A stretch of 64,000 bases of DNA, from positions 22,886 through 86,885 of the forward strand of contig JBILGC010000003.1 in the NCBI GenBank assembly GCA_044351265.1, written 5' to 3'. The notes under the pieces are model-generated. The model was given only the letters and a program-made list of their open reading frames with translations. It made no database searches and was not told the DNA's origin. The DNA is from Bacteroidia bacterium (GTDB lineage Bacteria > Bacteroidota > Bacteroidia > UKL13-3). Positions 4,687 to 26,286 of this stretch are shown piece by piece (positions within the stretch are counted from its first letter, which is position 1; each line of letters begins with the position of its first letter). A program made the position numbers and the translations under genes.

Positions 4687-4758
4687 ATGTTGCTCTATAA
4701 TTTAAATGCTGAACATCATTCAACATTCAGCATTTACATTCATAATTAAAATACAAAT

Positions 4759-6015: not shown

Positions 6016-6075
6016 AGTAAGGGTATTGTTAAAATTGCGGCAAGATAAGTTCTTATTCTCACCTGAGGAACTGAT

Positions 6076-7155
6076 TTATATCAACGCGGAAAAATCGCCA
6101 TAAATCGCACCACCTATGCTGTTTCTGGATGCTCCGGTAACACTTTTTAAACTGTTATTCAGATTGTTCACCCGCAAGGCCCCAAGTAATGCAAAAATAA
6201 TGGCCTCTTTATATTGAATGGTTTGCTCATCAGGGATATGAATTTGGGTAATTTGTTGCTGCTGCACCTGCTCAATAAGATGGGTATTAAACGCTCCGCC
6301 TCCGGTAATAAGCATTTTTTCCGGTCGATATTTTTCCAATACCCGTTTAATCTGAAAAGCAATATGTGTAGATAGCGTGGTCATCATATTAGTCTCACTG
6401 ATATCGGAAGCAGATTTAACAACCGGCCAGAATACCTCATTGATCCATTCCCGTCCGAGTGACTTTGCTGTTTGAAGGTGATAATAATCCAAGTCATTTA
6501 ATTTATTTAAGAGTTCCTCATCTGCCACACCAGCCGCTGCAATTTTACCTTCATTATCATAAGCCAGATTTAACCAGCGTGCCACGCGATTCAGCACAAT
6601 ATTGCAGGGTGCAATATCAAAAGCCTTTATACTCTGCACACTTGTTAGACTTATGTTGGCAATACCACCCAAATTTAAACAGGCATCATAAGCTGAAAAA
6701 AGCAACTGATCACCGATGGGTACCAAAGGTGCCCCCTGCCCTCCAAGCGCCACATCAGTTGTTCTGAAATCGCATACCACCGGCAAACCGGTAATGGCAT
6801 TAATGGCTGCGCCATCTCCTATCTGTGCAGTGAAACCTGCATCAGGCTGATGGAAAATAGTATGGCCATGAGAACTGATCAGATCAGGCTTGATTTGATG
6901 TTTGGCTATAAACTGATTGACCAACTGACCCATAAACTTACCATAAAACGCACTTGTTTTAGGATATAAAAAAATGGGTTGCTTATACAATTGGGATAGC
7001 CTGATGCGCCATCTCTCTTCATAAGGAATGGTTTCGGCTACCGGGCAGGCATAACTCCAATAACCATTATCATTGTTCAGTATTACATAAGCAATATCTA
7101 CTCCATCCATGGAGGTACCACTCATGATTCCAATAACATGCAATTCGTTTTTCAT
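6076..7155 (-). CDS. anmK: Anhydro-N-acetylmuramic acid kinase
   Basis: N-terminus HVIGIMSGTSMDGVDIAYV matches AnmK (E. coli FIGVMSGTSLDGVD). 359 aa with an ASKHA fold length. Confidence 0.85.
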   Translation of the reverse strand: MKNELHVIGIMSGTSMDGVDIAYVILNNDNGYWSYACPVAETIPYEERWRIRLSQLYKQPIFLYPKTSAFYGKFMGQLVNQFIAKHQIKPDLISSHGHTIFHQPDAGFTAQIGDGAAINAITGLPVVCDFRTTDVALGGQGAPLVPIGDQLLFSAYDACLNLGGIANISLTSVQSIKAFDIAPCNIVLNRVARWLNLAYDNEGKIAAAGVADEELLNKLNDLDYYHLQTAKSLGREWINEVFWPVVKSASDISETNMMTTLSTHIAFQIKRVLEKYRPEKMLITGGGAFNTHLIEQVQQQQITQIHIPDEQTIQYKEAIIFALLGALRVNNLNNSLKSVTGASRNSIGGAIYGDFSALI

Positions 7156-7207
7156 GACAATGGGCGAAATTAACTTTTTACATTCATAAACTTTTTACCA
7201 TATTTGA

Positions 7208-11306: not shown

Positions 11307-12386
11307 GTGTTTAGATATTTTTTTTCAATACTAATTGTTTGTTTTTGTTTTCTGAAACTTTCTGCTCAGGATACTGCCTTTTATATAAATAAGAAAGGAA
11401 TAAAGTATACACGTGCTGATTATGTTGATGACAAAACAGGCTTTATACAGATAACACCTTTTCTTTATAACTCCAGAAATCACTTTGAATTACAGGATAA
11501 ACGCGTGCTCACATTTGAACCTAATGAGAGCGTGAATGTAGGTGTAAAGCTAATGCATAAATGGCTGGGAGTGGCCTTTTCTGTTGGCATTAAAAACACC
11601 CAAGCCGAAAGAAGAGGCAATACAGACTATGTTAATTTTCAGTTGAACAGTTATGGCAAAAAAGTAGGATTCGATATTTACTACTCAGACTATACCGGAT
11701 ATTACCTAGAGAACTACAGAAAGTTTGCTGAGCTGGCAGAAGCTTATGGAAATAGATTCCCGGTGCGATCTGATATCAGCACCACCAGCATTGGCGCTAA
11801 TACTTACTATATTTTTAACCATAAAAAGTATTCTTATCGCTCCACTTTTGTTCACAATGAAATACAGAAAAAAAGTGCAGGCTCAGTACTGCTCAATGCC
11901 TCTATTTCTTATTTTAGAATTAGCGGAGACTCCGCCATAGTGCCGAGGGGTATTAATAGCTTTTACGAGGATCGATCTCGATTTGAAGATGGTAATTTTT
12001 ATAGTATGTCCTTGCTACCCGGATATTCTCACACACTGGTACTGTTTAAACGTTTTTTTATTACAGGGGCTTTGCTCTTAGGGGTTACCGGGCAGTATCA
12101 GGAATTCTCACAAGAAGATGAATCAAATCAAACAAGATGGGTTGCATTGCCACGTGGCATGTCGAGATTTGGTTTTGGATACAATGGCAATAAATTTTAT
12201 GCCGGGCTTACCTCTATGGCCGATGCCTACAATTTACCACTGGGAAACCAATCCAGATTAACCTATTTCATTGCAAGCGGCTCTGTTTATTTTGGTATAC
12301 GATTGCAGGTGCCAAAAGTATTGAAGAAAATATCAAACGGTATGGACTATTATTCTCCTGCACTTATTTTCCATCACTCCCGCTAG
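11307..12386 (+). CDS. Uncharacterised outer-membrane protein (signal peptide, beta-rich; possibly DUF4421-like)
   Basis: Signal peptide MFRYFFSILIVCFCFLKLSAQ. Alternating aromatic/hydrophobic pattern typical of beta-barrels. No recognisable enzymatic motif. Confidence 0.35.
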   Translation: MFRYFFSILIVCFCFLKLSAQDTAFYINKKGIKYTRADYVDDKTGFIQITPFLYNSRNHFELQDKRVLTFEPNESVNVGVKLMHKWLGVAFSVGIKNTQAERRGNTDYVNFQLNSYGKKVGFDIYYSDYTGYYLENYRKFAELAEAYGNRFPVRSDISTTSIGANTYYIFNHKKYSYRSTFVHNEIQKKSAGSVLLNASISYFRISGDSAIVPRGINSFYEDRSRFEDGNFYSMSLLPGYSHTLVLFKRFFITGALLLGVTGQYQEFSQEDESNQTRWVALPRGMSRFGFGYNGNKFYAGLTSMADAYNLPLGNQSRLTYFIASGSVYFGIRLQVPKVLKKISNGMDYYSPALIFHHSR

Positions 12387-13299
12387 TTGGCGGCTTGTGC
12401 TTCCAGCGCCTGTGGCTCCATAACCATATTTCAGGACAACTGATGATATCCTTCTCCAGCATACGCGTATAGGTTTCCGTAATTTCATTTTCTTTAGTTG
12501 CAGCAGGTTGATCCGATACCAACTGAAAACTTACATGGTAATATCCCCTTCTTAACCTTTTCACCGAGGCATATAGCACCGGAAAGTTCAACTTTTTAGC
12601 CATGAATTCAGCACCTGTTAAAACAGGTGTGGGCTGATTAAGAAAAGTTAGCCACAAAGCATCTTTAGGATTGGAAGGTGTTTGATCGGCAATAAAAGCA
12701 GTGATGGTTCTTTCCTTGCGCGAAGCAATCATTCTTTTTGCTGCATGATGCATATTGAGTAAATTCATCCCAAATCGCATCCTGAATTTTGCAGTAAGCC
12801 AATTAAAAAACGGATTTTTGATTGGATGATATAATACATAAGAAGAATATGGATGATGCATCATAAACGATTGTCCGGCCCACTCCCAGTTGCCCCAATG
12901 ACCTAATACCATAATTACACTTTGGTTATTAGTATAGAAAGAATCAACCAATTTTATGGATTGCTCATCATATGTACAGTGCTTTTTTAGTTGTACTTTA
13001 CTAATTGTTGAAACTTTATAGGTCTCAATCATCAAATCAATTAAGTAGCGGTAATATCTTTTAGCTATGATATCAATTTCTGCAGATGTTTTTTGAGGAA
13101 AAGCATTTCTTAAATTATTATACACCACCTTTCTTCTATAGCCAAGCAGATAGTACATAAAATAATAAATCATATCAGACAAAATGTACAAAAATGGCAT
13201 AGGCAGCATCATTAGAAGAACAAATGGCGCTGCCAATAAGTGATAATACCATTTTGCCTTGAATGTATCTGACATGGTTTTGCTTATAATAGTTTTCAA
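12364..13299 (-). CDS. Lipid A biosynthesis (Kdo)2-lipid IVA acyltransferase family protein (LpxL/HtrB-like)
   Basis: N-terminal membrane anchor, HWGNWEW (the HX4D/E-type acyltransferase region) and a C-terminal PEIWLWSHRRWKHKP resembling the LpxL C-terminus (EQYMWLHRRFKTRP). 311 aa. Confidence 0.75.
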   Translation of the reverse strand: MKTIISKTMSDTFKAKWYYHLLAAPFVLLMMLPMPFLYILSDMIYYFMYYLLGYRRKVVYNNLRNAFPQKTSAEIDIIAKRYYRYLIDLMIETYKVSTISKVQLKKHCTYDEQSIKLVDSFYTNNQSVIMVLGHWGNWEWAGQSFMMHHPYSSYVLYHPIKNPFFNWLTAKFRMRFGMNLLNMHHAAKRMIASRKERTITAFIADQTPSNPKDALWLTFLNQPTPVLTGAEFMAKKLNFPVLYASVKRLRRGYYHVSFQLVSDQPAATKENEITETYTRMLEKDIISCPEIWLWSHRRWKHKPPTSGSDGK

Positions 13300-13330: not shown

Positions 13331-16300
13331 ATGAAAACTTTTTTATCATTTTTCTGCGCAACCATAATTGTTCAGATGTCGTTATTTGCACAAGTAAATA
13401 TACAGCAGGCCGGAGTATCTTATTTTAATAATCTGGACTCCCTAGCAAGAAGCGGAACAGTGTCCACTCCCTTACCGGAAGGATGGCTCTTTGCAGAGAC
13501 AGGCACAAATGCCAATAACACATATACAGCAGATATTGGTTCAGCTACTGCTGGTAATACCTATAGCTTTGGTAGTAGTAACTCAGCCGACCGGGCTCTT
13601 GGTAGTCTGGCAAGTGGGAGTTTAAACAGTAATATCGGTGCACGTTTTATAAATCAAACAGGAAATACCATCAACACAGTTGAATTAAACTTTTTAATGG
13701 AGCAATGGAGAAGTGGAGGAAGAACCACTCCTGATACTTCATTGTTTTTTTATGGCATAAATAATGGTGGTTTACTTGCTGCAAATGGCACTTGGACAAG
13801 AGACTTAAGACTTGACCTGCTTTCCAAAAGGTATAGTAACCCGGCACCTCCAGCAGGTGGGCTCAATGGAAATGATACCGCCAACCAACGTGCATATACC
13901 GGAATTGAACTAACAGGATTAACAATAAACAATGGCGATACTTTATACCTGCGCTGGTTTGATATTAATGTAGCAGGGAATGATGATGCCTTGGCTATTG
14001 ACAGCTTTACAATTATTTTTAAGACCTCTTCATCTACTATAACCAAACCAAATGCCATTCCATCTTTCTCTTACAGTCAAATTACTTCACAGCAAGCACG
14101 CATAACATGGCCAAAGCCCTCGGGGTATGTTGACAGTGCACAAACGATATTATTATTTTTAAGAGCCGGTACACCTCCAGCAACTGGAAATATAACTCAG
14201 TCAAGCAACCGTTTTATTGCTTCAGATGATTTCCTCTCATCCCAAAGCAGCAGATACCCTTTTGATACAGCAGCAAAATGCATTTATAAAGGCGACAGCG
14301 GCTTTGTATCCCTGAGCGGTCTAGCCCCGGCAACTTGGTATTATGTACTTGGATATGCAACAAGAGATGCAGACTCTGCTTATTCTGTATTACGAATTGA
14401 TTCATTCCAAACTGCAAGTCCGCCACAGCCGGTAAGTAATATATCTGTAGCAGGTGATATGGTAACAACTGCCAGAATTTCTTGGTCATTGCCTCCAACA
14501 TACAATGCAGCTGCTTCAAGTGTATTGGTTTTTGTTAAAGCAGATAGTGCAGTTAACTTGCAAACACCCACCTTAGATCCATCTCGCTACCAGGCCAATG
14601 GAAATATAGGTTTGGGCACACCATATCAGCATGACGCTGCAGCCTCATGTGTTGCAAAAACAGATGCCCAAACCACATTGGTACTTAAATTACAGCCATC
14701 AAAAAACTATCATATACTTATACTGGTTGTGAATGATGCGGACTCAACCTATTCTCAGTCTGCGGTATTTTCATTTACACAACAGGTTCCAAATCCTCTG
14801 CCGCTTGTTCAATTAAACTCCGTTCCTTTAACAGCAACCAGTGCACAAATTACTTGGCAAAAACCTGCCGGTTATAATAATTCAAAATACACAACAGTGC
14901 TATATTTAAAAGCGGATACGTTGATTACAAATGCACAGCCACTGGCAGGCATTACATCTATTAATGCATCAACCATATTTAAAAATGGAAGTAAATTTCA
15001 ATTTGATACGCTGGCACATTGCATTTTTAAAGGAGATACCAATTTGGTAACTGTTACCAACCTTAGCAACGCAAAAAAATATTTTTTAAGCGCCTGGGTT
15101 ATTGAAGATTTTGATTCTGTATACAGCACAGAGGCAAAAATTCAGGTGGTATCAAAGCCTCCTCCACCGCTATATTCCATAGGCAGTATCAATAAGGCTA
15201 ATTCCATAACCGGTGTTGCCGATTCGCTTGGGAAAGGGGCAACCATAAGAGGCATCGTGTATGGCTTTAACCAAACACTTAGCGGGCTTAGCTTTTTATT
15301 GGCTGATGCAACAGGTGGAATTCAGATTTCTAGCCCGGGTAAAACTTTTGGCTATCCGGTAGCTGAAGGTGATAGCTTGCAGATAAGTGGTATTGTGGGA
15401 ACCCAACGCGGGCTAGCCAATTTGCAGACACTAGATACCATAGTTAAGCTTGGCTCAGCAAGGCCATTACAAAATCCGGTTATTGTAAATACACTTAATG
15501 AACCTACTGAAAACAAATTAATACAGGTAAAATGGGTTCGGTTTGTTACACCACCTGCAGGCAGCAAATGGCCAACAGTAAATTCAAATATCAAGGTGAT
15601 TAAAGTAGGCACTACCGATACATTGACCATCAGGCTGCTTTCTGCATCTGCACTGGCAGGTCAGAATCTTCCAAAAACAACTATATTCACAGTAACCGGT
15701 TTAGGAAGTCAGATAAGTACCAGCTTCAGCGCACCATTTCAATTTGACGGCTACCAGATTATTCCAAGAAATGTAGCCGATATCCAACCAAACGATACAC
15801 TTGAGGCATTCACACTTTTACAACCTGTAAATTCTTCTGAAATAAATATTGATACACTACCTGCAACCCAATTAAATTTAAGATGGCAACGCAGTGCCAA
15901 CTTACCTATTGCGGCAGTGCCAACCTATACGCTTGAATTGGATACTGCGGCTTCATCAGGCCTATTTGCATCACCGGATTACACAAATAATTCTGCCAGC
16001 GACACTTCAATTACCCTGAATAATCAGCAACTGCGCTCATTGGCGCAAACCTTAGGAATAAAGCAAGGACAAAATTACAGTGGCAGATGGCGTGTAGTTG
16101 CAGCAACTGGCAACTATCAGCGAACATCAACAGATACGTTTACCATACTGCTTAAAAATAATTTTTCTACCGGTGTAGCTGAATGGGACCATTTTTCAAA
16201 AATGGTATTGCTTTACCCTAATCCTGCATCAGATAATGTAAGTGTGCAATCTGAAAAAAATATTGATTCTTGGTTTATTAAAGATGTTTCAGGTAAAGTG

Positions 16301-16429
16301 GTAGCCTCAGGTAAAACAAATTCTGGCCCCCTTCAGGAGCTGAATATTGAGGAGTTAAAATCAGGATTGTATTTTGTAACATTATACAGCGGTCGGTCTT
16401 CAGCTCATGTGAAACTGATAAAGAAATAA
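13331..16429 (+). CDS. Large secreted multi-domain protein with a type IX secretion system C-terminal sorting domain
   Basis: Signal peptide MKTFLSFFCATIIVQMSLFAQ. 1032 aa. Three tandem repeats of about 125 aa (ITWPKPSGY..., ISWSLPPTY..., ITWQKPAGY...). The C-terminus LYPNPASDNVSVQSEK...GLYFVTLYSGRSSAHVKLIKK is a typical Por/T9SS CTD. Confidence 0.7.
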   Translation: MKTFLSFFCATIIVQMSLFAQVNIQQAGVSYFNNLDSLARSGTVSTPLPEGWLFAETGTNANNTYTADIGSATAGNTYSFGSSNSADRALGSLASGSLNSNIGARFINQTGNTINTVELNFLMEQWRSGGRTTPDTSLFFYGINNGGLLAANGTWTRDLRLDLLSKRYSNPAPPAGGLNGNDTANQRAYTGIELTGLTINNGDTLYLRWFDINVAGNDDALAIDSFTIIFKTSSSTITKPNAIPSFSYSQITSQQARITWPKPSGYVDSAQTILLFLRAGTPPATGNITQSSNRFIASDDFLSSQSSRYPFDTAAKCIYKGDSGFVSLSGLAPATWYYVLGYATRDADSAYSVLRIDSFQTASPPQPVSNISVAGDMVTTARISWSLPPTYNAAASSVLVFVKADSAVNLQTPTLDPSRYQANGNIGLGTPYQHDAAASCVAKTDAQTTLVLKLQPSKNYHILILVVNDADSTYSQSAVFSFTQQVPNPLPLVQLNSVPLTATSAQITWQKPAGYNNSKYTTVLYLKADTLITNAQPLAGITSINASTIFKNGSKFQFDTLAHCIFKGDTNLVTVTNLSNAKKYFLSAWVIEDFDSVYSTEAKIQVVSKPPPPLYSIGSINKANSITGVADSLGKGATIRGIVYGFNQTLSGLSFLLADATGGIQISSPGKTFGYPVAEGDSLQISGIVGTQRGLANLQTLDTIVKLGSARPLQNPVIVNTLNEPTENKLIQVKWVRFVTPPAGSKWPTVNSNIKVIKVGTTDTLTIRLLSASALAGQNLPKTTIFTVTGLGSQISTSFSAPFQFDGYQIIPRNVADIQPNDTLEAFTLLQPVNSSEINIDTLPATQLNLRWQRSANLPIAAVPTYTLELDTAASSGLFASPDYTNNSASDTSITLNNQQLRSLAQTLGIKQGQNYSGRWRVVAATGNYQRTSTDTFTILLKNNFSTGVAEWDHFSKMVLLYPNPASDNVSVQSEKNIDSWFIKDVSGKVVASGKTNSGPLQELNIEELKSGLYFVTLYSGRSSAHVKLIKK
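14036..15166 (+). repeat. Three tandem in-frame repeats of about 375 bp, encoding FN3-like modules within the T9SS cargo gene
   Basis: Protein-level repeats with a shared pattern: [IS][TS]W.[KL]P.[GT]Y...(T/S)xxLxFLKAD...LxHCIxKGD...Y...A(T/D)SxYS. Divergent enough that this is not a recent duplication. Confidence 0.5.
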
Positions 16430-16501
16430 CATAAAAGCAGTTAAGATATTGGCGTGAATATGGTTTAATATTCATATAATTGTTGGGATATTACCCTCTA
16501 T

Positions 16502-18178
16502 ATGAAAAAACTTTATTTGGTTTCACTGCTTTTTGCCTGCATAAAAATTAATGCACAGCAAAGCGGAGAACTCACTGACAAAGGACAATTCTCAGGCAAT
16601 TTTCAGATGAACACGCAGTTTTATTTGCGTGATGATAAAATTGGAGCAAGCACCACCCAATACCTGAGGGAAAAATCTTCTACCGAAGCATGGCTCTTTA
16701 TGAATTATAAACTAAAGGGTTTCAATTTTACGGTTCGCTATGATTTGTTTAATAACTCTCCATTATTTAATCCGTTTCAGGCATATACCAATCAAGGACT
16801 AGGCTATTGGGAAATAACCAAAGAGATAGACAAGTTCAGCATCACCGGAGGATACTTTTATGACCAATTCGGTACCGGGCTTATTTTTAGGGCTTACGAA
16901 GACAGGAATATAGGAATTGATTTTGCCGTACAGGGAGCACGCATTGTTTATACGCCAACTGAAAATCTTCGCTTGAAGGTTTTTACTGGCAGGCAAAAAT
17001 ATCGGTTTGATACCAGAGAGCCTGTAATTAAAGGAGGTAATATTGAGTATCGCCTGCCTGTTTCAGAAAATGCTATTTTGGATATGGGTGCTTCCTTGGT
17101 TAACAGAACACTCGACCAAAATACAATGAGCCAAGTTGCAAATACCATAAATGGATACGCACTTGAAAAACGTTTTAATCCAACGTACAATGTTTATTCA
17201 TGGAATCTTTATAATACACTAAATTATAAAAAATTTACTCTCTATCTGGAGTATTGTAATAAAAGCCCTGAGGCTATTCTGGATTACAGCAACACATTGG
17301 TTAAAAAAGGAGGCAATATTTATTATGCGAGTTTATCCTATGCTACAAAAGGACTAGGCATTAATGGACAAATACGCAGGATAGAAACTTATCCGTTAAG
17401 AGTTAATCCCTTAGAGATACAACCTTTTCCAAACAGTGCAGTAATTAACTATATGCCTGCACTTACCCGCCAAAACACATATCGATTGCTTGCCCGCTAC
17501 AATTCAGTAGTGCAGGAGCTTGGAGAGAATGCAGCCCAACTGGAAATAACTTTTAAACCTAATAAAAAGTTTTCTATGAACATCAACACCTCTGCAGTTA
17601 ATGCACTTAATGGTGTAGATTTTAAGAGGAGCATTCCTGAAATAAAATGGGACAGCACCACCAAATTATTCAGTGAGTTTTACATAGATGCTTCATACAA
17701 ATTTACCTCAGCCTTTAAAATGATGGCGGGTATACAGTTAATTGGCTACAATCAGGTTTTATTTGAAGGCAAGCCCCAGGAAAAAGCACCCTATGTAAAT
17801 GCCATCACACCTTTTGGAGAATTCACTTACCGAATTACGCCTACCCGCTCTGTCAGAATGGAGTGGCAATACATGCACACCAATCAGGATTTGGGAAAAT
17901 TTGTGAATGCATTGGTTGAATACAATATTGCCCCTCATTGGTCATTTGCTGCAGGCGATCTTATCAATATAGAACATGGAACGATAAATAAACCCGGACC
18001 GGGAGAAAAATTTGAGTTTATTCATTACTACAATTTTTTTGCTGCCTACACATATAAAAGCTCACGCCTAACAGCAGGGTTTTTAAAACAACCCCAAGGT
18101 GTGAATTGCACAGGCGGTGTTTGCCGCGTTGAGCCTGCATTTAGTGGCGGACGCATAACTTTAACAACTAATTTCTAA
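16502..18178 (+). CDS. Outer-membrane beta-barrel protein (DUF6029-like)
   Basis: Signal peptide MKKLYLVSLLFACIKINAQ. 558 aa with beta-strand periodicity. The C-terminal Cys-containing tail GVNCTGGVCRVEPAFSGGRITLTTNF ends in an aromatic residue. 72 bp downstream of the T9SS cargo gene. Confidence 0.45.
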   Translation: MKKLYLVSLLFACIKINAQQSGELTDKGQFSGNFQMNTQFYLRDDKIGASTTQYLREKSSTEAWLFMNYKLKGFNFTVRYDLFNNSPLFNPFQAYTNQGLGYWEITKEIDKFSITGGYFYDQFGTGLIFRAYEDRNIGIDFAVQGARIVYTPTENLRLKVFTGRQKYRFDTREPVIKGGNIEYRLPVSENAILDMGASLVNRTLDQNTMSQVANTINGYALEKRFNPTYNVYSWNLYNTLNYKKFTLYLEYCNKSPEAILDYSNTLVKKGGNIYYASLSYATKGLGINGQIRRIETYPLRVNPLEIQPFPNSAVINYMPALTRQNTYRLLARYNSVVQELGENAAQLEITFKPNKKFSMNINTSAVNALNGVDFKRSIPEIKWDSTTKLFSEFYIDASYKFTSAFKMMAGIQLIGYNQVLFEGKPQEKAPYVNAITPFGEFTYRITPTRSVRMEWQYMHTNQDLGKFVNALVEYNIAPHWSFAAGDLINIEHGTINKPGPGEKFEFIHYYNFFAAYTYKSSRLTAGFLKQPQGVNCTGGVCRVEPAFSGGRITLTTNF

Positions 18179-18187
18179 TTTCGAAGT

Positions 18188-19120
18188 ATGAAAAAATTAC
18201 AACTGCTTACCTGCATAATTATTTTTTCGCTTTTGAGTGCCTGCGAAGAAGAACCGCCTTTTATAGATTATAACCCTCCAAAAATTTTATTTGATACCAC
18301 TTATATCGACAATAATATCCCTTCGGCACAAAGAAAAATAACACTGCTTGAAGATGTATCAGGAGTAAAATGCCCTAACTGTCCTGATGCTACTAAAATT
18401 GCCTTGGCTACTAAAAATGAATTGCAAGGACGTTTACATATTGTGGTGATTCATCCAAACATTCCTGCGCTGGGATCTTTCGTAGATCCGGTAACTACTC
18501 CTTTTGTAAGCAAACAAGATTTTAGAACAGATGCAGGAAAGGCTATTTGTGAACAGATTATTGGCACCCCTAATTCGCTACCTCGAGGTTGTGTAGACCG
18601 CACAAAGTTCGGAGATCAACAGGCTATACTTACCGATAGAACCGTATGGAATGCAAAAATAAAAGAACGCGATGCCCTTACCACCCCGGTTAACCTTGAA
18701 ATTGAACAACTGCCTTCTGCACCCAATCAGATTTTGATTGAAGTGAGTATGCATTATACCCAAAAACAAACCGACTCCAATTACTTAAGTGTGATGCTGC
18801 TTGAAGATAGCATGATAGACGTTCAGGAATATCAAACTATTGTAGATGGAATAATCACTCAAAAATTTGATTCGGCATACGTGCACAACCATGTATTGCG
18901 TGACATGTTCACGCTATACACAGGTGAGTTGCTAAACAAGAGCGGAATTACCCTTGATGCCGGCAGGGTAATAAAGAAACGCTATCTGTATACCATACCA
19001 ACTGATAAACCAAAAGTAATCATCAGAAAGAAACATACGAGAATATTAGCCTTTGTTCACCGCAACAGTGCCACCAATAAGGAAGTGCTACAATCGCAGG
19101 AAATAGAAGTGAATGAATAA
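18188..19120 (+). CDS. Omp28-related outer-membrane lipoprotein (thioredoxin-like CxxC)
   Basis: Lipoprotein signal ...IFSLLSAC, CPNCPD motif, 310 aa. 9 bp after the preceding beta-barrel gene. Confidence 0.4.
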   Translation: MKKLQLLTCIIIFSLLSACEEEPPFIDYNPPKILFDTTYIDNNIPSAQRKITLLEDVSGVKCPNCPDATKIALATKNELQGRLHIVVIHPNIPALGSFVDPVTTPFVSKQDFRTDAGKAICEQIIGTPNSLPRGCVDRTKFGDQQAILTDRTVWNAKIKERDALTTPVNLEIEQLPSAPNQILIEVSMHYTQKQTDSNYLSVMLLEDSMIDVQEYQTIVDGIITQKFDSAYVHNHVLRDMFTLYTGELLNKSGITLDAGRVIKKRYLYTIPTDKPKVIIRKKHTRILAFVHRNSATNKEVLQSQEIEVNE

Positions 19121-19706
19121 AAGCTTTTTATTTCTTTCTGTTTTTTATATCCTGTATGGTTGCACCGGATCTGATAAGTCTTATATCCAATCCATCACAG
19201 AACAGCACAAACAATATGCTGCATCTTTCACAGATACTGCACAATCACCGCTTGACTCAGCAGAACGCATTGCTTTTAAAGGTGTAGCTCATTTCGTGCC
19301 CGATAAAAATTATAAAGTGACAGCGAAAGTGCTATGGCTGCCATACACCGGTGCTGTTGATTTACCTCACTCAAGGGGAGATTTCAGACCCTATTTTCAG
19401 GCGGCTCAATTAAACTTTACAATTAATGGTAATGATTATTCATTAATTGGATATCAAAATGAAAAAATGCGCACACAGCGTATCTTATTTGTACCGTTTG
19501 CTGATGCAACCAACAGCAATGAAACTTATGGTGGTGGGCGCTATATGGATATTTCATACGTACCCAATGCTTCAGAAACTGTGATGGATTTTAATTTGAG
19601 TTATTACCCCTACTGTGCATACAGCCATCGCTATTCATGCCCTATTGTGCCAAAGGAAAACTCCCTGAACATTGCTATCCGTGCAGGTGAGCGTAACAGT
19701 CACTAG
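19113..19706 (+). CDS. DUF1684 domain-containing protein
   Basis: 197 aa with the C-terminal motif YYPYCAYSHRYSCPIVPKENSLNIAIRAGE, characteristic of DUF1684 (YC.Y...CP..P.EN.L...I.AGE). An 8-nt overlap with the upstream gene suggests translational coupling. Confidence 0.6.
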   Translation: MNKSFLFLSVFYILYGCTGSDKSYIQSITEQHKQYAASFTDTAQSPLDSAERIAFKGVAHFVPDKNYKVTAKVLWLPYTGAVDLPHSRGDFRPYFQAAQLNFTINGNDYSLIGYQNEKMRTQRILFVPFADATNSNETYGGGRYMDISYVPNASETVMDFNLSYYPYCAYSHRYSCPIVPKENSLNIAIRAGERNSH

Positions 19707-20794
19707 TAGCTAAAAATAATTCTGAAATCTAGAAAATTGGCTACCTGACGGTGGGCTAGCACATTCATGCCAACACCCAAATTGTCACTTAATCGATACA
19801 GCAAACCATAACGCTGAAAAACCGGGTCGAAATAACCACTCGGGTTAAAAAGGTAAACACCCAGTTGCTGACTAAAAATTATCTTACCCATTAAAAATTC
19901 ATGACCACCGGTAATGGCTGCACGCTGATTGCTGATATCAGTTTTCCCATCTCGCTTGAGTCTTTCCCTAAGTGAATTATCAATATTCCACTCTGCCCCC
20001 AAGGTAAGAGCGTTAAATATGCCGGTTTGCTTGCTTACCTGCGCAGTTATGCCTCCTATCATCCATCTTTCTTTTTCTCCGGCCTGCACCGTTTTACTCG
20101 ACCAATATACACTTATATCAAAACGGGGCGGTTTGCCTTTGTAATTTTTATATTTTGTTTTTTCTCTTATAGGGAGTGATGCCGCTATAGGCCTATAATC
20201 TATTCCCAAAGCAGCGGTTGGCCAGTTTACACCTTTATTCGGATCTTTGATGCCTCCATTAGATACATGGTTGTAATGAATATAGGCACTCATATTTAGC
20301 CTTTCAGAAAGTTTAACATGTGCACCTAATCCTAATGAAACAAAACCTGTGATAGGTAAACTGTAAGACAAATTATTTGGATTATTTATGGGATGATAAG
20401 GATTGGTTAAGTAGGATAATCCGGCTGCTGCTTTTATTGCCATGTTGATGCGATGCGTGAAAGAAAAGTATGGTTCTATAAACGCAGCTGTCGTAATAGC
20501 ATGACCTAAACTCTGATTATCAAAAGTAAAGTACTGAATAAAAAAACCTGTTTTTGGATAGCAATAGCACGTGTTCCAGGTTTTGGCATCAGCCAATTGC
20601 CAGTTAAAATCAAACTGAAAACCTGTGGGATAGGAATTGGCTGTATTCTGCACCTCTTTACTATGTGCAAAAATAAAACCCTTGTGTAGGGTTGCGCCAT
20701 AGCTGAAAATACTGCGCAGCGAATCTTGCTGAGCATTGGCAGTAAAGACAATGGCATGCATTAAAATAAGTAGCGCATTTTTTATTCCCATCAT
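19703..20794 (-). CDS. Outer-membrane beta-barrel protein, possibly acyloxyacyl-hydrolase/PagL-like
   Basis: Signal peptide MMGIKNALLILMHAIVFTANAQ, beta-barrel-like composition, ends ...RIIFSY (aromatic terminus). The family assignment is tentative. Confidence 0.35.
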   Translation of the reverse strand: MMGIKNALLILMHAIVFTANAQQDSLRSIFSYGATLHKGFIFAHSKEVQNTANSYPTGFQFDFNWQLADAKTWNTCYCYPKTGFFIQYFTFDNQSLGHAITTAAFIEPYFSFTHRINMAIKAAAGLSYLTNPYHPINNPNNLSYSLPITGFVSLGLGAHVKLSERLNMSAYIHYNHVSNGGIKDPNKGVNWPTAALGIDYRPIAASLPIREKTKYKNYKGKPPRFDISVYWSSKTVQAGEKERWMIGGITAQVSKQTGIFNALTLGAEWNIDNSLRERLKRDGKTDISNQRAAITGGHEFLMGKIIFSQQLGVYLFNPSGYFDPVFQRYGLLYRLSDNLGVGMNVLAHRQVANFLDFRIIFSY

Positions 20795-23343: not shown

Positions 23344-26286
23344 CTACTTACCACCGAGCGCATAATATCTGTTCATGCATTCCTGCGCCTCGGCTGATTT
23401 GCCTTGTTTATTAAATACCTCCGCAAGCAGGCGGTATGACATTGCACTTTTTTGATCTAAGGTGAGCGCCAGTATCAGGTTATCTTCAGCTTTTTTATAG
23501 CTACCCGTATTGTAATATCCTAAACCAAGGTTGTAATAAACATCTGCAACACTTCCGCCACCTCGTTTCACAGCCATTTCAAGAAACTTAAGCCCTGCCC
23601 CGAAATCTCCTTTCTGATAATGGGCCATAGCTGTGTAATAGTAAGCATCGGTATAATTGAATTTATAACTATTGGCTTTCTTGAAATACTCAATAGCTTT
23701 ATCCGGATTTTTATTCAGGTTAATTTCTACCAAACCAAGAGTAGACCATGCCATATAATTTTCAGGATAAATATCAATTGCTTTATTTAAATTTCTGATA
23801 GCCTCAGGAGCGTTGCCTTTACTTAGATAGCATAAACCCAGCATTCTAAAAACTTCTTCATCTTTTGGATTATAAGCTGCTGCCTGATTGAAGTAAAAAA
23901 TAGCCGTATCGAAATTTCTGGCCTCAAAATACTGATAACCTTTAGGCATCCAATTGTTCTCTCTTTTAACAACAGCAGCCAACGGAATACCGTCAGCCAT
24001 TACTGTATATACTGTACCTTTAGGTGGGAAGGCACCGGCTTCCAGTTCTTTCGATGAAAAGGTACGTGAGGTGAGTATGGCATAATCCCACGGCAACTTT
24101 TGCTCTTCATATTCACGCATCCACCTAAATTCCATATCCGGATTGTATTTATTGGCGTAGTAAGATGCTGTGAGTGGCTCATTATTTATGCCCACTATCA
24201 TTTTTTTATTTGGCTCTTGTTTAGCTATCCACTCTGCTGCCTCACGGCATGAGTTGGAATAATAATCCATTTCATATTTACCATAAGCACCTTTAGTGCC
24301 CCCACTTACAGCATTAAAATACACACACTCGTTCGGATGATTTTGTAACATCCAGGATGCAGGGAGAGCACATAAAAGCAACACACCTGCCAATGATGCA
24401 TAACTTGTAATTTTGTTTTTAGTGATTACACCTAAGCCATCCCAGCCGCAAGCAGCAAGTATTACTATTGGCGGATAAACAAACAAGTAATGCCTCCACC
24501 CATTATAATAATACATGCTCTGGACTTCGGCATATGCAATTGGGAAAACTGCAACAAATATTACTATGCCTATGGCATACCAATTTTTATAGTTCCTTTT
24601 TAAAACCCATAGTAACGAAACAAGAAGAGCAATGCCCAACCAAACGACTTCAGGAGTATTGATAAAAATAAATTTAGGTAAATAATACCAGGGTACATTT
24701 GCCATATACATGCGCACACCTTCAAACAACTCATGGTTAAAAGTAAAATATGCCCCTTCGGTTGATTTTTTCAGCGCTTCATACCAATTGGCAAAAGGCT
24801 GCTGCTGTGCAAATGGCCATAATGAAATACCAACCAAGTGACCAACGATAACAATGAGCAGTAAAATACGCGCATAAGGCCAAATTAGTTTAATAGCATT
24901 TGACATACCTTCTTTTTTAACAACAAGCAGCCAGGAAATACCTAAAAATAAACCAACATAAGCATACCAGATGATGCCTCCTACGCGTGAGCCAATGGCC
25001 ATACCAATACCGGCACCGCATAAAACCAAGTGCAATAAAGCAGGCTTAGGCAGCTGCTGAAGTATCTTTATTAAATAATAGAGTGCCATTGCACACCCTG
25101 CAGCAAATGGAATATCAGTAGGGTTATTCATGCTGTGTGCAAAAAATACAGGGCTGCAAAAAATGATTATAAATGCAAAAAATGCTCCGCGCCAAGATGT
25201 AATTTCTTTAGCAGCAAGAGCAGCAAACAACATGGCTAACAGTCCATACAACGCATTAAGCAAATGACGCATTTCAAATTCGCCCAACACACCAAAATAG
25301 GTATTAAAAAACGCACTGATTACATTAAAATGTTCTCCGTAATATCTGAACTCCTGTATAGGTGATGTAGCAGATAATGCCGTTGAATCGCTTCCAAATG
25401 AGGTAAAATAATTAAGCATCTGGTAGCCATACTGGTTATGGCGTTTGGCATCCCAGGTTATACCAAAGTCCTGACTAAAATAAGGCATGGCAATACATGC
25501 GAACAGAAAAAATGCAGCAAAAAGCAAACGATATAAGGGTTGGTATCCTGCCGTATCTTCTGCACCAAATTGCATCAGCGGATCTTTGATAAACCAGCTA
25601 ATTCGTGGACCAAGAATATTGCTTACTATCTTTTTAAAACTAACCTTACGCAACTGATGCTCTTTTGCCGAAAGTGTGATTGCAACAACAGGTGTGCTTA
25701 AATAGGCAAGGCGGCTGCAAACAGAAATGCTTTTATGGTGATTGCTATTAAACCCTTTTACTGCAGCATCTCTACCAAAAAATACAAATGGATGTGTGTA
25801 ATCTTTTAAACCTGCAGGTAAGAGCATGCCTGCAAGCAGATTGTATAAACCAATACCTGTTTTTTGTAAAATGTTTATTGGCAACTTGCCCGACTGGGCA
25901 TTAAACTCACCAACATAAACTGCATCCAATTCTGTAAATGATTTTTTGTTCAATCCAAAACAACTTACCACAGCCTGTGGCATAAATGAAGTTGTATCAT
26001 TAACCACATAAACAACCTTTCTGCAATGCTCTGCCCAATCTTTGAAACTAGCTATAACATGACATCTGCCTTTTTCTTTGAGTGCTAAAACATCGGGGAG
26101 GTTTGCAACCACACCACTTTTATCAAACACAATTAATGATGACTCTGTACGCACTTTTAATAAAGCCTGAGCCACCATATTTGCATCATCGGGCTTTTTA
26201 GCGGCATCAAATAAAAAGGTAAGCTCTTGGTCGCTCACCGTTTTTATTTGTTCTGCTGAAGGTTTGGTTGTATTCTTTTTGCTCAT
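23344..26286 (-). CDS. GT-C-fold membrane glycosyltransferase-like protein (DUF2723/GT117- or PMT-like), with C-terminal TPR repeats and a distinct N-terminal cytoplasmic domain of about 230 aa
   Basis: 980 aa. Residues about 240-700 have at least 11 hydrophobic helices. The C-terminal 230 aa have at least 5 TPR-like repeats (AYNPKDEEVFRMLGLCYLSKGNAPEAIRNL..., YMAWSTLGLVEINLNKNPDKAIEYFKKA..., YYNLGLGYYNTGSYKKAEDNLILALTLDQ...). A 4-nt overlap with the upstream FAD enzyme gene suggests an operon. Confidence 0.55.
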   Translation of the reverse strand: MSKKNTTKPSAEQIKTVSDQELTFLFDAAKKPDDANMVAQALLKVRTESSLIVFDKSGVVANLPDVLALKEKGRCHVIASFKDWAEHCRKVVYVVNDTTSFMPQAVVSCFGLNKKSFTELDAVYVGEFNAQSGKLPINILQKTGIGLYNLLAGMLLPAGLKDYTHPFVFFGRDAAVKGFNSNHHKSISVCSRLAYLSTPVVAITLSAKEHQLRKVSFKKIVSNILGPRISWFIKDPLMQFGAEDTAGYQPLYRLLFAAFFLFACIAMPYFSQDFGITWDAKRHNQYGYQMLNYFTSFGSDSTALSATSPIQEFRYYGEHFNVISAFFNTYFGVLGEFEMRHLLNALYGLLAMLFAALAAKEITSWRGAFFAFIIIFCSPVFFAHSMNNPTDIPFAAGCAMALYYLIKILQQLPKPALLHLVLCGAGIGMAIGSRVGGIIWYAYVGLFLGISWLLVVKKEGMSNAIKLIWPYARILLLIVIVGHLVGISLWPFAQQQPFANWYEALKKSTEGAYFTFNHELFEGVRMYMANVPWYYLPKFIFINTPEVVWLGIALLVSLLWVLKRNYKNWYAIGIVIFVAVFPIAYAEVQSMYYYNGWRHYLFVYPPIVILAACGWDGLGVITKNKITSYASLAGVLLLCALPASWMLQNHPNECVYFNAVSGGTKGAYGKYEMDYYSNSCREAAEWIAKQEPNKKMIVGINNEPLTASYYANKYNPDMEFRWMREYEEQKLPWDYAILTSRTFSSKELEAGAFPPKGTVYTVMADGIPLAAVVKRENNWMPKGYQYFEARNFDTAIFYFNQAAAYNPKDEEVFRMLGLCYLSKGNAPEAIRNLNKAIDIYPENYMAWSTLGLVEINLNKNPDKAIEYFKKANSYKFNYTDAYYYTAMAHYQKGDFGAGLKFLEMAVKRGGGSVADVYYNLGLGYYNTGSYKKAEDNLILALTLDQKSAMSYRLLAEVFNKQGKSAEAQECMNRYYALGGK

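What the first reader, a model, noticed from the sequence alone, without database searches (positions are those of the whole stretch)
13331..19706. Four-gene plus-strand unit: T9SS cargo with tandem FN3-like repeats, a beta-barrel, an Omp28-like lipoprotein and a DUF1684 protein
A 1032-aa secreted protein with three tandem modules of about 125 aa and a T9SS C-terminal domain is followed by a DUF6029-like outer-membrane beta-barrel (72 bp downstream), an Omp28-related CxxC lipoprotein (9 bp) and a DUF1684 protein (8-nt overlap). The tight spacing suggests a surface complex made of a T9SS-delivered protein and a dedicated outer-membrane anchor or partner. The cargo N-terminal region (residues about 40-230, G/N/S-rich) and the region after the repeats have no assignable catalytic motif.
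Basis: partly seen in the sequence, partly recalled or inferred. Interest (0 to 1): 0.5.

Follow-up and report, generated by a model that had tools for sequence, protein, structure and literature searches.

The report
Outer-membrane barrel with thiol-protein partners
The four genes are real, but the conserved unit is the last three: a large outer-membrane barrel, a thioredoxin-like surface lipoprotein and a third cysteine-pair protein. Together they look like an undescribed Bacteroidota outer-membrane thiol (redox or metal/heme) module, and the secreted protein upstream is a frequent but optional neighbour.

Summary
All four ORFs, their spacing and their family assignments are confirmed. The unit has two layers.

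**Conserved core.** The core is barrel -> Omp28-like -> DUF1684.
- It is present in every locus whose barrel is at least 51% identical and whose flank is long enough, and again in a 42% clade.
- The barrel models as 24 strands. Its closest solved folds are usher pores.
- It carries a C-x-G-G-[VI]-C motif in the last extracellular loop in 114 of 114 full-length family representatives.
- The lipoprotein has a thioredoxin fold plus a beta-sandwich. Its best structural match is P. gingivalis HBP35, a surface thioredoxin and hemin binder.
- C-x-x-C-P is invariant in 57 of 57 partners, and an acidic surface-export-like signal follows the lipid cysteine.
- DUF1684 is a lipoprotein with Cx7C in 34 of 35 partners.
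- Where DUF1684 is absent, a secreted TlpA-like thioredoxin is often adjacent. The two never occur together (0/19 against 7/21).

**Cargo.** The T9SS cargo shares its N-terminal domain and an OB-like region with ExeM/NucH-type extracellular nucleases but has no nuclease domain.
- It accompanies the triad in one clade only.
- A full-length homologue sits elsewhere in another genome.
- T9SS proteins of other types lie directly upstream of these barrels more often than chance.

**Best reading (inferred).** This is a three-part outer-membrane thiol module, possibly carrying reducing power to the cell surface. A metal or heme uptake role is the main rival.

The parts
13331..16429 (+). T9SS type A cargo, 1032 aa. 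An accessory, clade-specific neighbour of the triad.
   Evidence: ORF; Pfam and NCBIfam matches. Homologues lie directly upstream of DUF6029 in L002, L003, L005, L006, L011-L014, L018 and L091 and in the P0197 context. The full-length homologue P0212 and the partial relative P0222 lie elsewhere.
13388..14020 (+). Cargo N-terminal domain (aa 20-230). It is shared with the N-termini of ExeM/NucH-type and DUF5689+EEP extracellular nucleases. It has no Pfam model and no PDB relative.
   Evidence: BLASTP gives 45% identity, E = 8e-44, to P0226 (DUF5689 + Exo_endo_phos) and 40%, E = 2e-38, to P0244 (named ExeM/NucH by NCBI). A profile search against PDB found nothing.
14042..15160 (+). Three tandem FN3-like modules of about 125 aa, each with one cysteine (C317, C440, C564).
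   Evidence: The self-alignment shows 28-33% identity and 20 invariant columns. The cysteine column is Cys in 141 of 185 modules and otherwise V, A, S or T.
15191..15784 (+). OB-like / DUF5689-like region (aa 621-818).
   Evidence: PF18942 scores 21.3 bits, below its cutoff of 28.6. Close homologues carry precomputed PF18942 hits. There is weak local similarity to the DUF5689 region of nuclease P0226.
15797..16096 (+). SusE-like Ig domain (aa 823-922).
   Evidence: PF14292, E = 6.8e-10, 39.5 bits against a cutoff of 25.2.
16211..16426 (+). T9SS type A C-terminal sorting domain (aa 961-1032).
   Evidence: PF18962 scores 46.2 bits and TIGR04183 scores 38 bits, both above cutoff. It also matches PDB 8GLJ chain D, a CTD.
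16430..16501 (.). 72-nt spacer between cargo and barrel. It contains a 7-bp inverted repeat (TGAATAT/ATATTCA, 16455-16474) and TATAATTG (16475-16482), which is one mismatch from the Bacteroidetes -7 box TAnnTTTG. It may hold an internal promoter for the triad.
   Evidence: Sequence read. The consensus promoter and terminator scan was uninformative.
16502..18178 (+). DUF6029 outer-membrane beta-barrel, 558 aa, modelled with 24 strands and no plug domain.
18107..18124 (+). Barrel family signature C536-T-G-G-V-C541, in the last extracellular loop (between strands 23 and 24).
   Evidence: Both cysteines are invariant in alignment A1. The motif is present in 114 of 114 full-length representatives down to 27% identity, many of which have no other cysteine.
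18188..19120 (+). Omp28-related lipoprotein, 310 aa: a thioredoxin-fold domain followed by a beta-sandwich (HBP35-like architecture).
   Evidence: PF11551 scores 67.9 bits. A profile search against PDB hits Omp28 2R2C at 4.6e-28 and HBP35 5Y1A at 6e-6, with the CxxC aligned. The AF2 model has pLDDT 93. Foldseek's top hit is HBP35, E = 1.4e-11, TM 0.59. It lies immediately downstream of the barrel in every barrel locus >=51% identical with enough flank.
18242..18262 (+). Lipobox Cys19 followed by EEEPPF, an acidic motif resembling the Bacteroidota lipoprotein export signal. This predicts surface exposure.
   Evidence: C-(E/K)-E-E-P-P-(Y/F) is conserved across partners. The LES is defined as K-(D/E)2, SDDDD or SDDFE in PMC5080379.
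18371..18385 (+). C62-P-N-C65-P66, the putative thioredoxin active site.
   Evidence: It is invariant in 36 homologues down to 24% identity and in 57 of 57 barrel-linked partners. In the model it sits between strand 52-57 and helix 65-78.
19113..19706 (+). DUF1684 lipoprotein, 197 aa. It has a lipobox Cys17 followed by non-acidic residues, so it is predicted to face the periplasm.
   Evidence: PF07920 scores 135.1 bits. It matches PDB 2LNU and 2LOK/4DLH/4FJ4, all listed as 'uncharacterized protein'. It follows the Omp28-like gene in all loci with barrel >=51% identity and in the 42% clade (L063, L065, L073, L074, L076).
19614..19643 (+). C168-AYSHRYS-C176-P, the Cx7C motif.
   Evidence: Present in 34 of 35 barrel-linked DUF1684 proteins. 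The same motif was proposed to act in thiol relay in Haloferax HVO_1043 (PMC9426492).

Best explanation
The region holds an ancient three-gene Bacteroidota outer-membrane module with a lineage-specific T9SS surface protein in front of it.

**The module.**
- A plug-less, roughly 24-stranded DUF6029 barrel.
- A lipoprotein with a thioredoxin fold plus a beta-sandwich, like HBP35. It has an invariant CxxC and is predicted to be on the cell surface.
- A DUF1684 lipoprotein with Cx7C, predicted to sit on the periplasmic face.

**Most likely mechanism (inferred).** The three proteins form one complex in which the barrel lets the surface thioredoxin-like protein communicate with a periplasmic thiol partner. 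The partner is DUF1684 here and a secreted TlpA-like thioredoxin in other lineages. Cysteine-based chemistry, most plausibly delivery of reducing equivalents, is thereby extended to the cell surface.

**The cargo.** It is a nuclease-derived, catalytically empty surface protein: nuclease-type N-domain, three FN3-like spacers, an OB-like domain, a SusE-like Ig domain and a type A CTD. It is probably a binding or scaffold protein. It is exported by the general T9SS route and is an optional neighbour, not an obligate subunit.

**Shown.** Gene content, folds, motif invariance, synteny, and complementarity of DUF1684 and TlpA-like neighbours.

**Inferred.** Complex formation, topology, and direction and nature of the thiol chemistry.
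For: **Synteny.** Barrel -> Omp28-like -> DUF1684 occurs in every locus whose barrel is at least 51% identical and whose flank is long enough. It recurs in a 42% clade (L063, L065, L073, L074, L076), with gaps of about 4-110 nt.

**Barrel.**
- It has 24 strands, with its long loops all extracellular.
- The family-wide C-x-G-G-[VI]-C is present in 114 of 114 representatives.

**Lipoprotein.**
- Its profile and its structure both match HBP35.
- HBP35 has thioredoxin activity in vitro that depends on its two cysteines, and it is surface-located (PMC2907840).
- CxxCP is invariant in 57 of 57 partners, alongside the conserved P132.
- NCBIfam holds a model of an 'Omp28-related selenoprotein'. The CxxC region matches it only faintly (E = 0.072, 12.4 bits against a cutoff of 200).
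- The motif after the lipid cysteine is LES-like.
- Omp28 domains also occur as T9SS cargo next to DUF6029 in L093 and L094, so this domain family works outside the cell.

**DUF1684.** Cx7C is present in 34 of 35 partners. It was previously grouped with thiol-relay proteins in an oxidative-stress regulon (PMC9426492).

**TlpA-like neighbours.**
- Secreted TlpA-like CxPC thioredoxins lie within 3 genes of the barrel in 8 of 48 clusters against about 1% background per gene (p = 0.007).
- They are mutually exclusive with DUF1684: 0 of 19 against 7 of 21, Fisher p = 0.009. Among Omp28-positive clusters it is 0 of 19 against 5 of 10, p = 0.002.
Against: - No interaction, localisation or redox data exist, and multimer modelling could not be run.
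- The barrel's cysteine pair is kept even in clades with no adjacent Omp28-like gene. It may therefore be a purely structural disulfide.
- Thiol-disulfide transfer across an outer membrane has no precedent.
- HBP35 also binds hemin. The lipoprotein has near-invariant histidines (H89, H233, H235), which suit metal or heme binding as well as redox chemistry.
- The statistics are weakened by shared ancestry. The DUF1684-positive clusters fall in two clades.
- The LES match is shifted by one position from the experimentally optimal C-X-K-(D/E)2.
- The window itself holds no TlpA-like gene. Other parts of a reducing pathway, such as CcdA/DsbD, were not searched for.
Confidence: 0.4

Rival explanations
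1. Uptake channel for a thiophilic ligand (heme, Cu, Zn or similar). The surface HBP35-like lipoprotein captures the ligand with its Cys and His residues. The wide barrel passes it through. DUF1684 receives it in the periplasm. This would be a TonB-independent counterpart of the barrel plus surface-lipoprotein importers of Bacteroidota.
For: - HBP35 binds hemin and is needed for growth under hemin limitation (PMC2907840).
- The lipoprotein family has near-invariant H89, H233 and H235 in addition to CxxC.
- Barrel plus surface-lipoprotein importers such as BtuB-BtuG and SusCD are a known Bacteroidota design, and they are recovered as distant fold matches.
Against: - There is no plug domain or TonB box.
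- No inner-membrane transporter is conserved next to the triad.
- Replacement of DUF1684 by a canonical TlpA-like oxidoreductase fits redox chemistry better than ligand hand-off. TlpA-type proteins can, however, service metallochaperones (from my own knowledge, not tested here).
Confidence: 0.22
2. The barrel, with its lipoproteins, is a dedicated outer-membrane anchor or partner for the T9SS-delivered protein encoded upstream.
For: - A CTD protein lies directly upstream on the same strand in 11 of 47 barrel clusters against a 4.4% background. At 60% clustering it is 4 of 19, p = 0.004.
- At least five unrelated cargo architectures are involved.
- The cargo-triad adjacency is kept across barrel divergence down to about 60% identity.
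Against: - The triad lacks any adjacent CTD protein in most lineages.
- The full-length cargo homologue P0212 and the partial relative P0222 are encoded away from any DUF6029 gene.
- The CTD is type A. From established knowledge, type A uses the general PorV/PorU pathway.
- The barrel is not a PorP/SprF family member.
Confidence: 0.12
3. DUF6029 is a polysaccharide-export porin, as suggested from HHpred similarity of Wzi-barrel-like proteins near OPX genes. Under this reading the neighbouring genes are unrelated to its function.
Against: - No OPX, Wza or polysaccharide-synthesis genes appear next to the barrel in any annotated context sampled. In L094 a few glycosyltransferase-type genes lie more than 1 kb away on the opposite strand.
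- This model does not explain the invariant coupling to a CxxC lipoprotein.
Confidence: 0.06
4. A two-component structural outer-membrane protein of the LptD/LptE type. The lipoprotein plugs the barrel or helps it fold and forms its disulfide. The transport function is unknown and has nothing to do with thiol chemistry. DUF1684 and the cargo are simply neighbours.
For: - A barrel of 24 strands with no plug needs something to occlude it.
- The barrel's cysteine pair persists without an adjacent partner.
- LptD is among the fold matches.
Against: - An invariant CxxCP in a canonical thioredoxin geometry is more than a plug would need. So are the existence of a selenoprotein model for the family and the homology to an enzyme with measured thioredoxin activity.
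- The recurrent, mutually exclusive thiol partners are not explained.
Confidence: 0.15

Closest known systems
HBP35 of Porphyromonas gingivalis (PDB 5Y1A) and Omp28 (PDB 2R2C)
   Same: - Both share the architecture of a thioredoxin-like domain with CxxC followed by a beta-sandwich.
- HBP35 is the best structural match (Foldseek E = 1.4e-11, TM 0.59) and a profile match with the CxxC aligned.
- The Y-x-H-x-H motif is shared.
- The domain works on the cell surface.
   Different: - HBP35 reaches the surface through a T9SS CTD and is anchored to A-LPS. The protein here is a lipoprotein with an export-signal-like N-terminus.
- The protein here is genetically locked to a DUF6029 barrel.
- Sequence identity to HBP35 is only 16%.
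- It scores below the NCBIfam cutoff for the Omp28 subfamily (82.8 against 150).
MtrCAB porin-cytochrome conduit (PDB 6R2Q)
   Different: There are no hemes and no CxxCH motifs here. The proposed carriers are cysteine pairs. There is no sequence relationship, and electron transfer is only inferred.
LptD-LptE plug-and-barrel complex
   Same: Both pair a large barrel with a dedicated lipoprotein encoded or assembled with it, and both barrels contain functionally important cysteines. LptD is a fold match.
   Different: LptE has no thioredoxin fold or CxxC. LptD has a periplasmic jellyroll domain that is absent here. LptDE is essential and universal, whereas DUF6029 appears restricted to Bacteroidota, judging from the source names.
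Chaperone-usher pores FimD and PapC
   Different: There is no plug, N-terminal or C-terminal usher domain, no chaperone or pilin genes nearby, and only about 10% identity. The resemblance is in barrel size only.
ExeM/NucH-type and DUF5689+EEP extracellular nucleases (comparison for the cargo)
   Same: The N-terminal domain is 40-45% identical (E = 8e-44 and 2e-38), and the nucleases also have an OB-like DUF5689-type region.
   Different: The cargo has no Exo_endo_phos catalytic domain. In its place it carries three FN3-like modules, a SusE-like Ig domain and a T9SS CTD.
Type B CTD cargo with PorP/SprF-like partner barrels (T9SS)
   Same: Both show the genetic pattern of a secreted surface protein followed by an outer-membrane barrel.
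   Different: The CTD here is type A (TIGR04183). The barrel is DUF6029, not PorP/SprF. The pairing is optional.

Membership tests
T9SS type A cargo (TIGR04183 / PF18962) | C-terminal domain of about 75 aa matching the type A sorting-domain profile above its cutoff | tested here: met
   PF18962 scores 46.2 bits against a cutoff of 27. TIGR04183 scores 38 bits against 23, over residues 961-1032.
T9SS type A cargo (TIGR04183 / PF18962) | N-terminal Sec signal peptide | tested here: met
   The sequence MKTFLSFFCATIIVQMSLFA|QVN has a hydrophobic core and an A|Q cleavage context. This was read directly from the sequence; no predictor was run.
T9SS type A cargo (TIGR04183 / PF18962) | Secretion depends on the T9SS machinery (Sov/PorV/PorU) | not testable with these tools
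   This needs a proteomic comparison of wild type against a T9SS mutant.
DUF6029 (PF19494) | Full-length match to the family profile | tested here: met
   414.8 bits, residues 1-558 against profile positions 1-538 of 538.
DUF6029 (PF19494) | Outer-membrane beta-barrel with the family's C-terminal C-x-G-G-[VI]-C-R...P-A...F signature (the signature is defined in this study) | tested here: met
   The model has 24 strands. The signature is in 114 of 114 full-length representatives and at residues 536-541 here.
Omp28 family (PF11551; NCBIfam NF033782 lipoprot_Omp28) | Pfam domain above the gathering score | tested here: met
   67.9 bits against 34.9, residues 130-309. The profile matches PDB 2R2C at 4.6e-28.
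Omp28 family (PF11551; NCBIfam NF033782 lipoprot_Omp28) | NCBIfam subfamily cutoff | tested here: not met
   82.8 bits against a cutoff of 150. The protein is Omp28-related, not a member of the curated Omp28 subfamily.
Thioredoxin-fold CxxC oxidoreductases (HBP35-like) | CxxC at the N-terminus of the helix that follows the first core strand, with a conserved proline loop before a later strand | tested here: met
   C62 and C65 lie between strand 52-57 and helix 65-78. The invariant P132 precedes strand 133-136. The cis conformation of the proline could not be checked.
Thioredoxin-fold CxxC oxidoreductases (HBP35-like) | Structural similarity to a protein with demonstrated thioredoxin activity | tested here: met
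   HBP35 5Y1A: Foldseek E = 1.4e-11, TM 0.59 over 282 columns. The activity is reported in PMC2907840.
Thioredoxin-fold CxxC oxidoreductases (HBP35-like) | Disulfide reductase or oxidase activity | not testable with these tools
   This needs an insulin-reduction or similar assay on wild-type and C62S/C65S protein.
DUF1684 (PF07920) | Profile match and the conserved Cx7C-P motif | tested here: met
   135.1 bits. It matches PDB 2LNU at 4.3e-30. CAYSHRYSCP is at residues 168-177, and the motif is in 34 of 35 partners.
ExeM/NucH family extracellular endonuclease | Endonuclease/exonuclease/phosphatase (PF03372) catalytic domain | tested here: not met
   No PF03372 hit at E <= 0.1 in the cargo. The homologous nucleases P0226, P0244, P0236 and P0237 have it.
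ExeM/NucH family extracellular endonuclease | Shared N-terminal domain | tested here: met
   45% and 40% identity over about 230-280 residues.
TonB-dependent transporter with surface lipoprotein (SusCD / BtuBG type) | Plug domain and TonB box in the barrel protein | tested here: not met
   No Plug (PF07715) hit. In the model the barrel begins about 10 residues after the signal peptide.
PorP/SprF partner of type B CTD cargo | PorP_SprF (PF11751) barrel adjacent to a type B CTD (TIGR04131) protein | tested here: not met
   The barrel matches only DUF6029, and the CTD matches type A.
OPX-coupled polysaccharide porin (Wzi-barrel-like) | Synteny with an OPX (Wza-type) gene and polysaccharide-assembly genes | tested here: not met
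MtrCAB-type porin-cytochrome conduit | Multiheme c-type cytochromes (CxxCH motifs) on both sides of the barrel | tested here: not met
   Neither lipoprotein has a CxxCH motif. The resemblance is one of architecture only.

The most novel reading that the evidence does not exclude
The DUF6029 barrel, the surface thioredoxin-like lipoprotein and the periplasmic thiol partner (DUF1684 or TlpA-like) form a thiol-disulfide conduit across the outer membrane. It would be the cysteine-based counterpart of the heme-based MtrCAB. Reducing equivalents from the periplasmic reducing pathway would be passed through or along the barrel to an enzyme on the cell surface. There they could repair or reduce surface and T9SS-delivered proteins or extracellular substrates.
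Probability: 0.2. Interest if true: 0.9.

Novelty: new variant of a known kind. Interest (0 to 1): 0.6.

Why it matters
**Gap in the literature.** Nothing in the searched literature describes this module. DUF6029 is named in only two held papers (one listed), where it is linked to polysaccharide export. DUF1684 is likewise named in two held papers (one listed).

**Size and conservation.** The barrel family is large: 723 clusters at 50% identity. Its coupling to a CxxC thioredoxin-fold lipoprotein is old and tight.

**If the thiol chemistry is real.**
- It would show how a Gram-negative cell supplies or controls cysteine chemistry outside its outer membrane. No such pathway is known.
- It would give a physiological partner and electron or ligand route for the HBP35/Omp28 family of the periodontal pathogen P. 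gingivalis.
- It would give a first functional context to three families of unknown function.

**Corrected picture of the T9SS link.** T9SS cargo genes are enriched upstream of these barrels, but they are interchangeable and dispensable.

**The cargo.** It is an example of a nuclease scaffold that lost its catalytic domain and became a surface protein.

Tried and rejected
- **Promoter and terminator scan.** Counts did not differ from shuffled sequence, and the tool does not cover Bacteroidota promoters. Whether the cargo is co-transcribed with the triad stays open.
- **Cargo N-domain against PDB and Pfam/NCBIfam.** No match. The domain was identified only through homologous nucleases.
- **Single-sequence PDB searches of the cargo and barrel.** They gave only a CTD hit and noise.
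- **The cargo's one cysteine per FN3-like module as the substrate of the thioredoxin-like lipoprotein.** Rejected as unlikely. The cysteine is replaced by V, A, S or T in 24% of modules, the pattern of a buried residue.
- **Polysaccharide-porin idea from PMC9603273.** Not supported by synteny or fold ranking.
- **Dedicated-anchor model.** Weakened by triads without cargo and cargo without triads.
- **Genome-contig scan.** It returned only five close relatives. The wide sample came from metagenome contigs found through the barrel's own Cys-motif peptides, so those loci cannot be used to test motif conservation. The unbiased representative search was used for that.
- **afdb50 fold library.** Unavailable.

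Full report
**Observation**

They are 13331-16429 (1032 aa), 16502-18178 (558 aa), 18188-19120 (310 aa) and 19113-19706 (197 aa). The gaps are 72 nt and 9 nt, and the last pair overlaps by 8 nt.

Profile searches confirm every family call:
- Cargo: type A T9SS sorting domain. PF18962 scores 46.2 bits against a cutoff of 27. TIGR04183 scores 38 bits against 23.
- Barrel: DUF6029 over the full length, 414.8 bits.
- Lipoprotein: Omp28 domain, 67.9 bits against 34.9.
- Fourth gene: DUF1684, 135.1 bits.

The three modules of about 125 aa align with each other at 28-33% identity. The window matches a freshwater Bacteroidia MAG contig at 100% and a Sphingobacteriales MAG at 96%.

**The cargo**

It also has a sub-threshold DUF5689-like region at 679-818.

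Residues 20-230 have no Pfam model and no PDB relative. They are nevertheless 45% identical (E = 8e-44) to the N-terminus of a DUF5689 + Exo_endo_phos protein. They are 40% identical (E = 2e-38) to the N-terminus of a protein that NCBI names ExeM/NucH extracellular endonuclease.

The cargo lacks the nuclease domain. It is therefore a nuclease-type scaffold without the enzyme, and is presumably a surface binding protein.

Each FN3-like module carries one cysteine. That position is V, A, S or T in 24% of 185 modules, which is how a buried residue behaves, not a reactive one.

**Synteny**

I collected 94 loci and mapped homologues by tblastn and phmmer.

- Barrel at least 51% identical, with enough flank: an Omp28-like gene follows after about 4-100 nt, and a DUF1684 gene follows that.
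- Deep clade at 42% barrel identity (L063, L065, L073, L074, L076): the same triad recurs, so the arrangement is old.
- Barrel 37-50% identical: many keep the Omp28-like gene without DUF1684.
- Some clades have a lone barrel.

The cargo family lies directly upstream only in one clade of the barrel tree, with losses in L007 and in L010/L016. Cargo homologues P0208 and P0197 sit in front of a triad. P0212, which is 39% identical over the full length, does not. Neither does P0222, a more distant, partial relative. So the cargo is neither necessary for the triad nor confined to it.

I built a CTD profile on the loci and used it on all 991 ORFs. A CTD protein occupies the position directly upstream in 15 of 78 loci, against 35 of about 913 elsewhere.

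After collapsing barrels into clusters, the figures are:

| Barrel clustering | CTD protein directly upstream, same strand | Background | p |
|---|---|---|---|
| 75% identity | 11 of 47 clusters | 4.4% | 4.5e-6 |
| 60% identity | 4 of 19 clusters | 3.6% | 0.004 |

The upstream proteins are unrelated to one another:
- the nuclease-like cargo
- a PNGase F-like protein
- an FG-GAP protein
- a small CarboxypepD_reg protein
- a protein with no domain other than the CTD
- T9SS proteins that themselves carry an Omp28 domain, in L093 and L094

**The barrel**

The AlphaFold model (pLDDT 74.5, pTM 0.70) has 24 strands. All long loops follow odd-numbered strands, so they are extracellular.

The most conserved stretch is Q-G-V-N-C-T-G-G-V-C-R-V-E-P-A-F-S-G in the last extracellular loop. 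An exhaustive search of cluster representatives found 723 family members at E <= 0.001. All 114 full-length members among the best 150 carry C-x-G-G-[VI]-C, down to 27% identity. Many have no other cysteine.

**The Omp28-like lipoprotein**

An alignment of 36 homologues down to 24% identity has these invariant positions: the lipobox cysteine, E55, G59, C62, C65, P66, P132, R138, Q213, Y231 and R238. H89, H233 and H235 are nearly invariant.

Its profile matches Omp28 (2R2C) at 4.6e-28. It matches HBP35 of P. gingivalis (5Y1A) at 6e-6, with the CxxC aligned.

The model is confident (pLDDT 93). It has a thioredoxin-like domain with the CxxC between a strand and a helix, followed by a beta-sandwich. 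Its best structural match is HBP35 (E = 1.4e-11, TM 0.59).

HBP35 is a T9SS surface protein. Its thioredoxin activity needs its two cysteines, and it also binds hemin (PMC2907840). NCBIfam even has a model for an 'Omp28-related selenoprotein'. The CxxC region matches it only faintly, at E = 0.072 and 12.4 bits against a cutoff of 200.

All 57 barrel-linked partners have C-x-x-C-P. Their lipid cysteine is followed by (E/K)-E-E-P-P-(Y/F). That resembles the Bacteroidota lipoprotein export signal, defined as K-(D/E)2, SDDDD or SDDFE (PMC5080379). Surface exposure is therefore predicted, not shown.

**DUF1684 and its substitutes**

The DUF1684 partners are lipoproteins with non-acidic residues after the lipid cysteine. 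Cx7C-P is present in 34 of 35.

The solved structures of the family (2LNU, 2LOK, 4DLH, 4FJ4) are unannotated. A Haloferax study grouped its DUF1684 protein with thiol-relay proteins of an oxidative-stress regulon because of this motif (PMC9426492).

In lineages without DUF1684, a secreted TlpA-like thioredoxin of about 166 aa with CxPC often lies within three genes of the barrel:
- directly adjacent and divergent in the deepest clade (L077, L082, L087-L089)
- two or three genes upstream in the L047/L049/L060 clade
- adjacent in L094, and three genes downstream in L093

Eight of 48 clusters have such a neighbour, against about 1% background per gene (p = 0.007).

The two partners never coincide:

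| Clusters compared | DUF1684 present | DUF1684 absent | Fisher p |
|---|---|---|---|
| All informative clusters with a TlpA-like neighbour | 0 of 19 | 7 of 21 | 0.009 |
| Omp28-positive clusters only | 0 of 19 | 5 of 10 | 0.002 |

Shared ancestry inflates these numbers. Even so, the pattern looks like displacement of one periplasmic thiol protein by another.

**Interpretation**

Shown:
- A conserved three-gene outer-membrane module.
- Each member carries a family-wide cysteine pair.
- One member is a thioredoxin-fold protein of a family known to act at the cell surface.
- The module recurrently associates with periplasmic thioredoxins and, more loosely, with T9SS cargo genes.

Inferred:
- The three proteins form a complex with the lipoprotein outside and DUF1684 inside.
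- The barrel couples them, most plausibly to bring reducing power to the surface.

The architecture parallels MtrCAB (periplasmic redox protein, wide barrel, surface redox lipoprotein) and LptDE (barrel plus dedicated lipoprotein). There is no sequence relationship and there are no hemes.

The main rival is a TonB-independent uptake route for heme or a thiophilic metal. This is prompted by HBP35's hemin binding and by the conserved histidines. The barrel's cysteine pair may also be simply structural, because it persists in clades with no adjacent partner.

**Limits**

- No multimer modelling, no coordinates, and no experimental data were available.
- Promoter and terminator scans were uninformative.
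- The 72-nt spacer contains a near-match to the Bacteroidetes -7 box, so the triad may have its own promoter.
- The metagenome loci were retrieved through the barrel's own Cys-motif peptides. Motif conservation therefore rests on the independent representative search.

**Verdict**

The interesting object is the DUF6029 / thioredoxin-like lipoprotein / DUF1684 triad. It is an undescribed variant of barrel-plus-lipoprotein outer-membrane complexes. If its cysteine chemistry spans the membrane, it would be a new kind of system.

Noticed in passing
window 12364-13299 (-) and 19703-20794 (-): Two lipid A-modifying genes bracket the four-gene unit. One is a Lip_A_acyltrans (LpxL/M-like) acyltransferase and the other is a PagL-like lipid A deacylase with a long C-terminal extension. 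The PagL-like gene stays convergent with DUF1684 in L002, L003 and L005. It also appears downstream of the triad in the separate L027/L032 clade.
   Followed up: partly
window 18242-18270; Omp28-like partners in L001-L094: The residues after the lipid cysteine, C-(E/K)-E-E-P-P-(Y/F)-I-(N/D)-(Y/F), are conserved far beyond what an export signal needs. This segment might be the tether that contacts or threads the barrel.
   Followed up: no
window 17417-17521 (barrel residues 306-340): A long extracellular loop is among the most conserved parts of the barrel: T322, R323, Q324, N325, Y327, R328, L329, L330, R332, Y333, N334, Q338, E339, G341. Yet it is modelled with pLDDT below 50. It may fold only against a partner, or it may form the constriction.
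   Followed up: no
window 14279-14281, 14648-14650, 15020-15022: There is exactly one cysteine per FN3-like module. In many homologues the number of cysteines equals the number of modules (3 to 9). The position is Cys in 76% of 185 modules and otherwise V, A, S or T.
   Followed up: yes
window 16455-16482: A 7-bp inverted repeat TGAATAT/ATATTCA is immediately followed by TATAATTG, 19 nt before the barrel start codon. It could be an operator plus promoter for the triad.
   Followed up: no
L093 (Candidatus Amoebophilus asiaticus assembly GCA_017115865.1) 181-7332: This genome, which NCBI names as the amoeba symbiont Candidatus Amoebophilus asiaticus, keeps a dense cluster. It holds a T9SS protein with Cleaved_Adhesin + Omp28 domains, a CTD-only protein, DUF6029, two tandem Omp28-like lipoproteins and a TlpA-like thioredoxin.
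   Followed up: partly
L007 5514-7434 and the P0197 context: A pyridine-nucleotide-disulfide oxidoreductase of 465 aa and a short Plug-domain fragment lie just upstream of the triad in two related lineages, one with the cargo and one without. L063 and L074 have a geranylgeranyl-reductase-like flavoprotein directly upstream.
   Followed up: no
window 11307-12386 (+): A DUF4421 protein of 359 aa with a signal peptide is encoded just upstream of the unit on the same strand. Its function is unknown.
   Followed up: no
window 38075-39367 (-): This is the only other ORF in the 64-kb window that matches the T9SS CTD profile (430 aa). That makes 2 CTD proteins in the 64-kb window, a density that looks similar to the ~4% background measured in the loci.
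   Followed up: no
window 23344-26286 (-): A 980-aa protein combines a PMT_2-type (dolichyl-phosphate-mannose-like) glycosyltransferase membrane domain with C-terminal TPR repeats. An amine-oxidase-like flavoprotein follows it at 26283-27713.
   Followed up: no
L006 1-7829; L014 445-8797: Some lineages carry two tandem paralogues of the cargo in front of the triad, with 5 to 9 FN3-like modules each. Module number therefore varies widely (3-9).
   Followed up: partly
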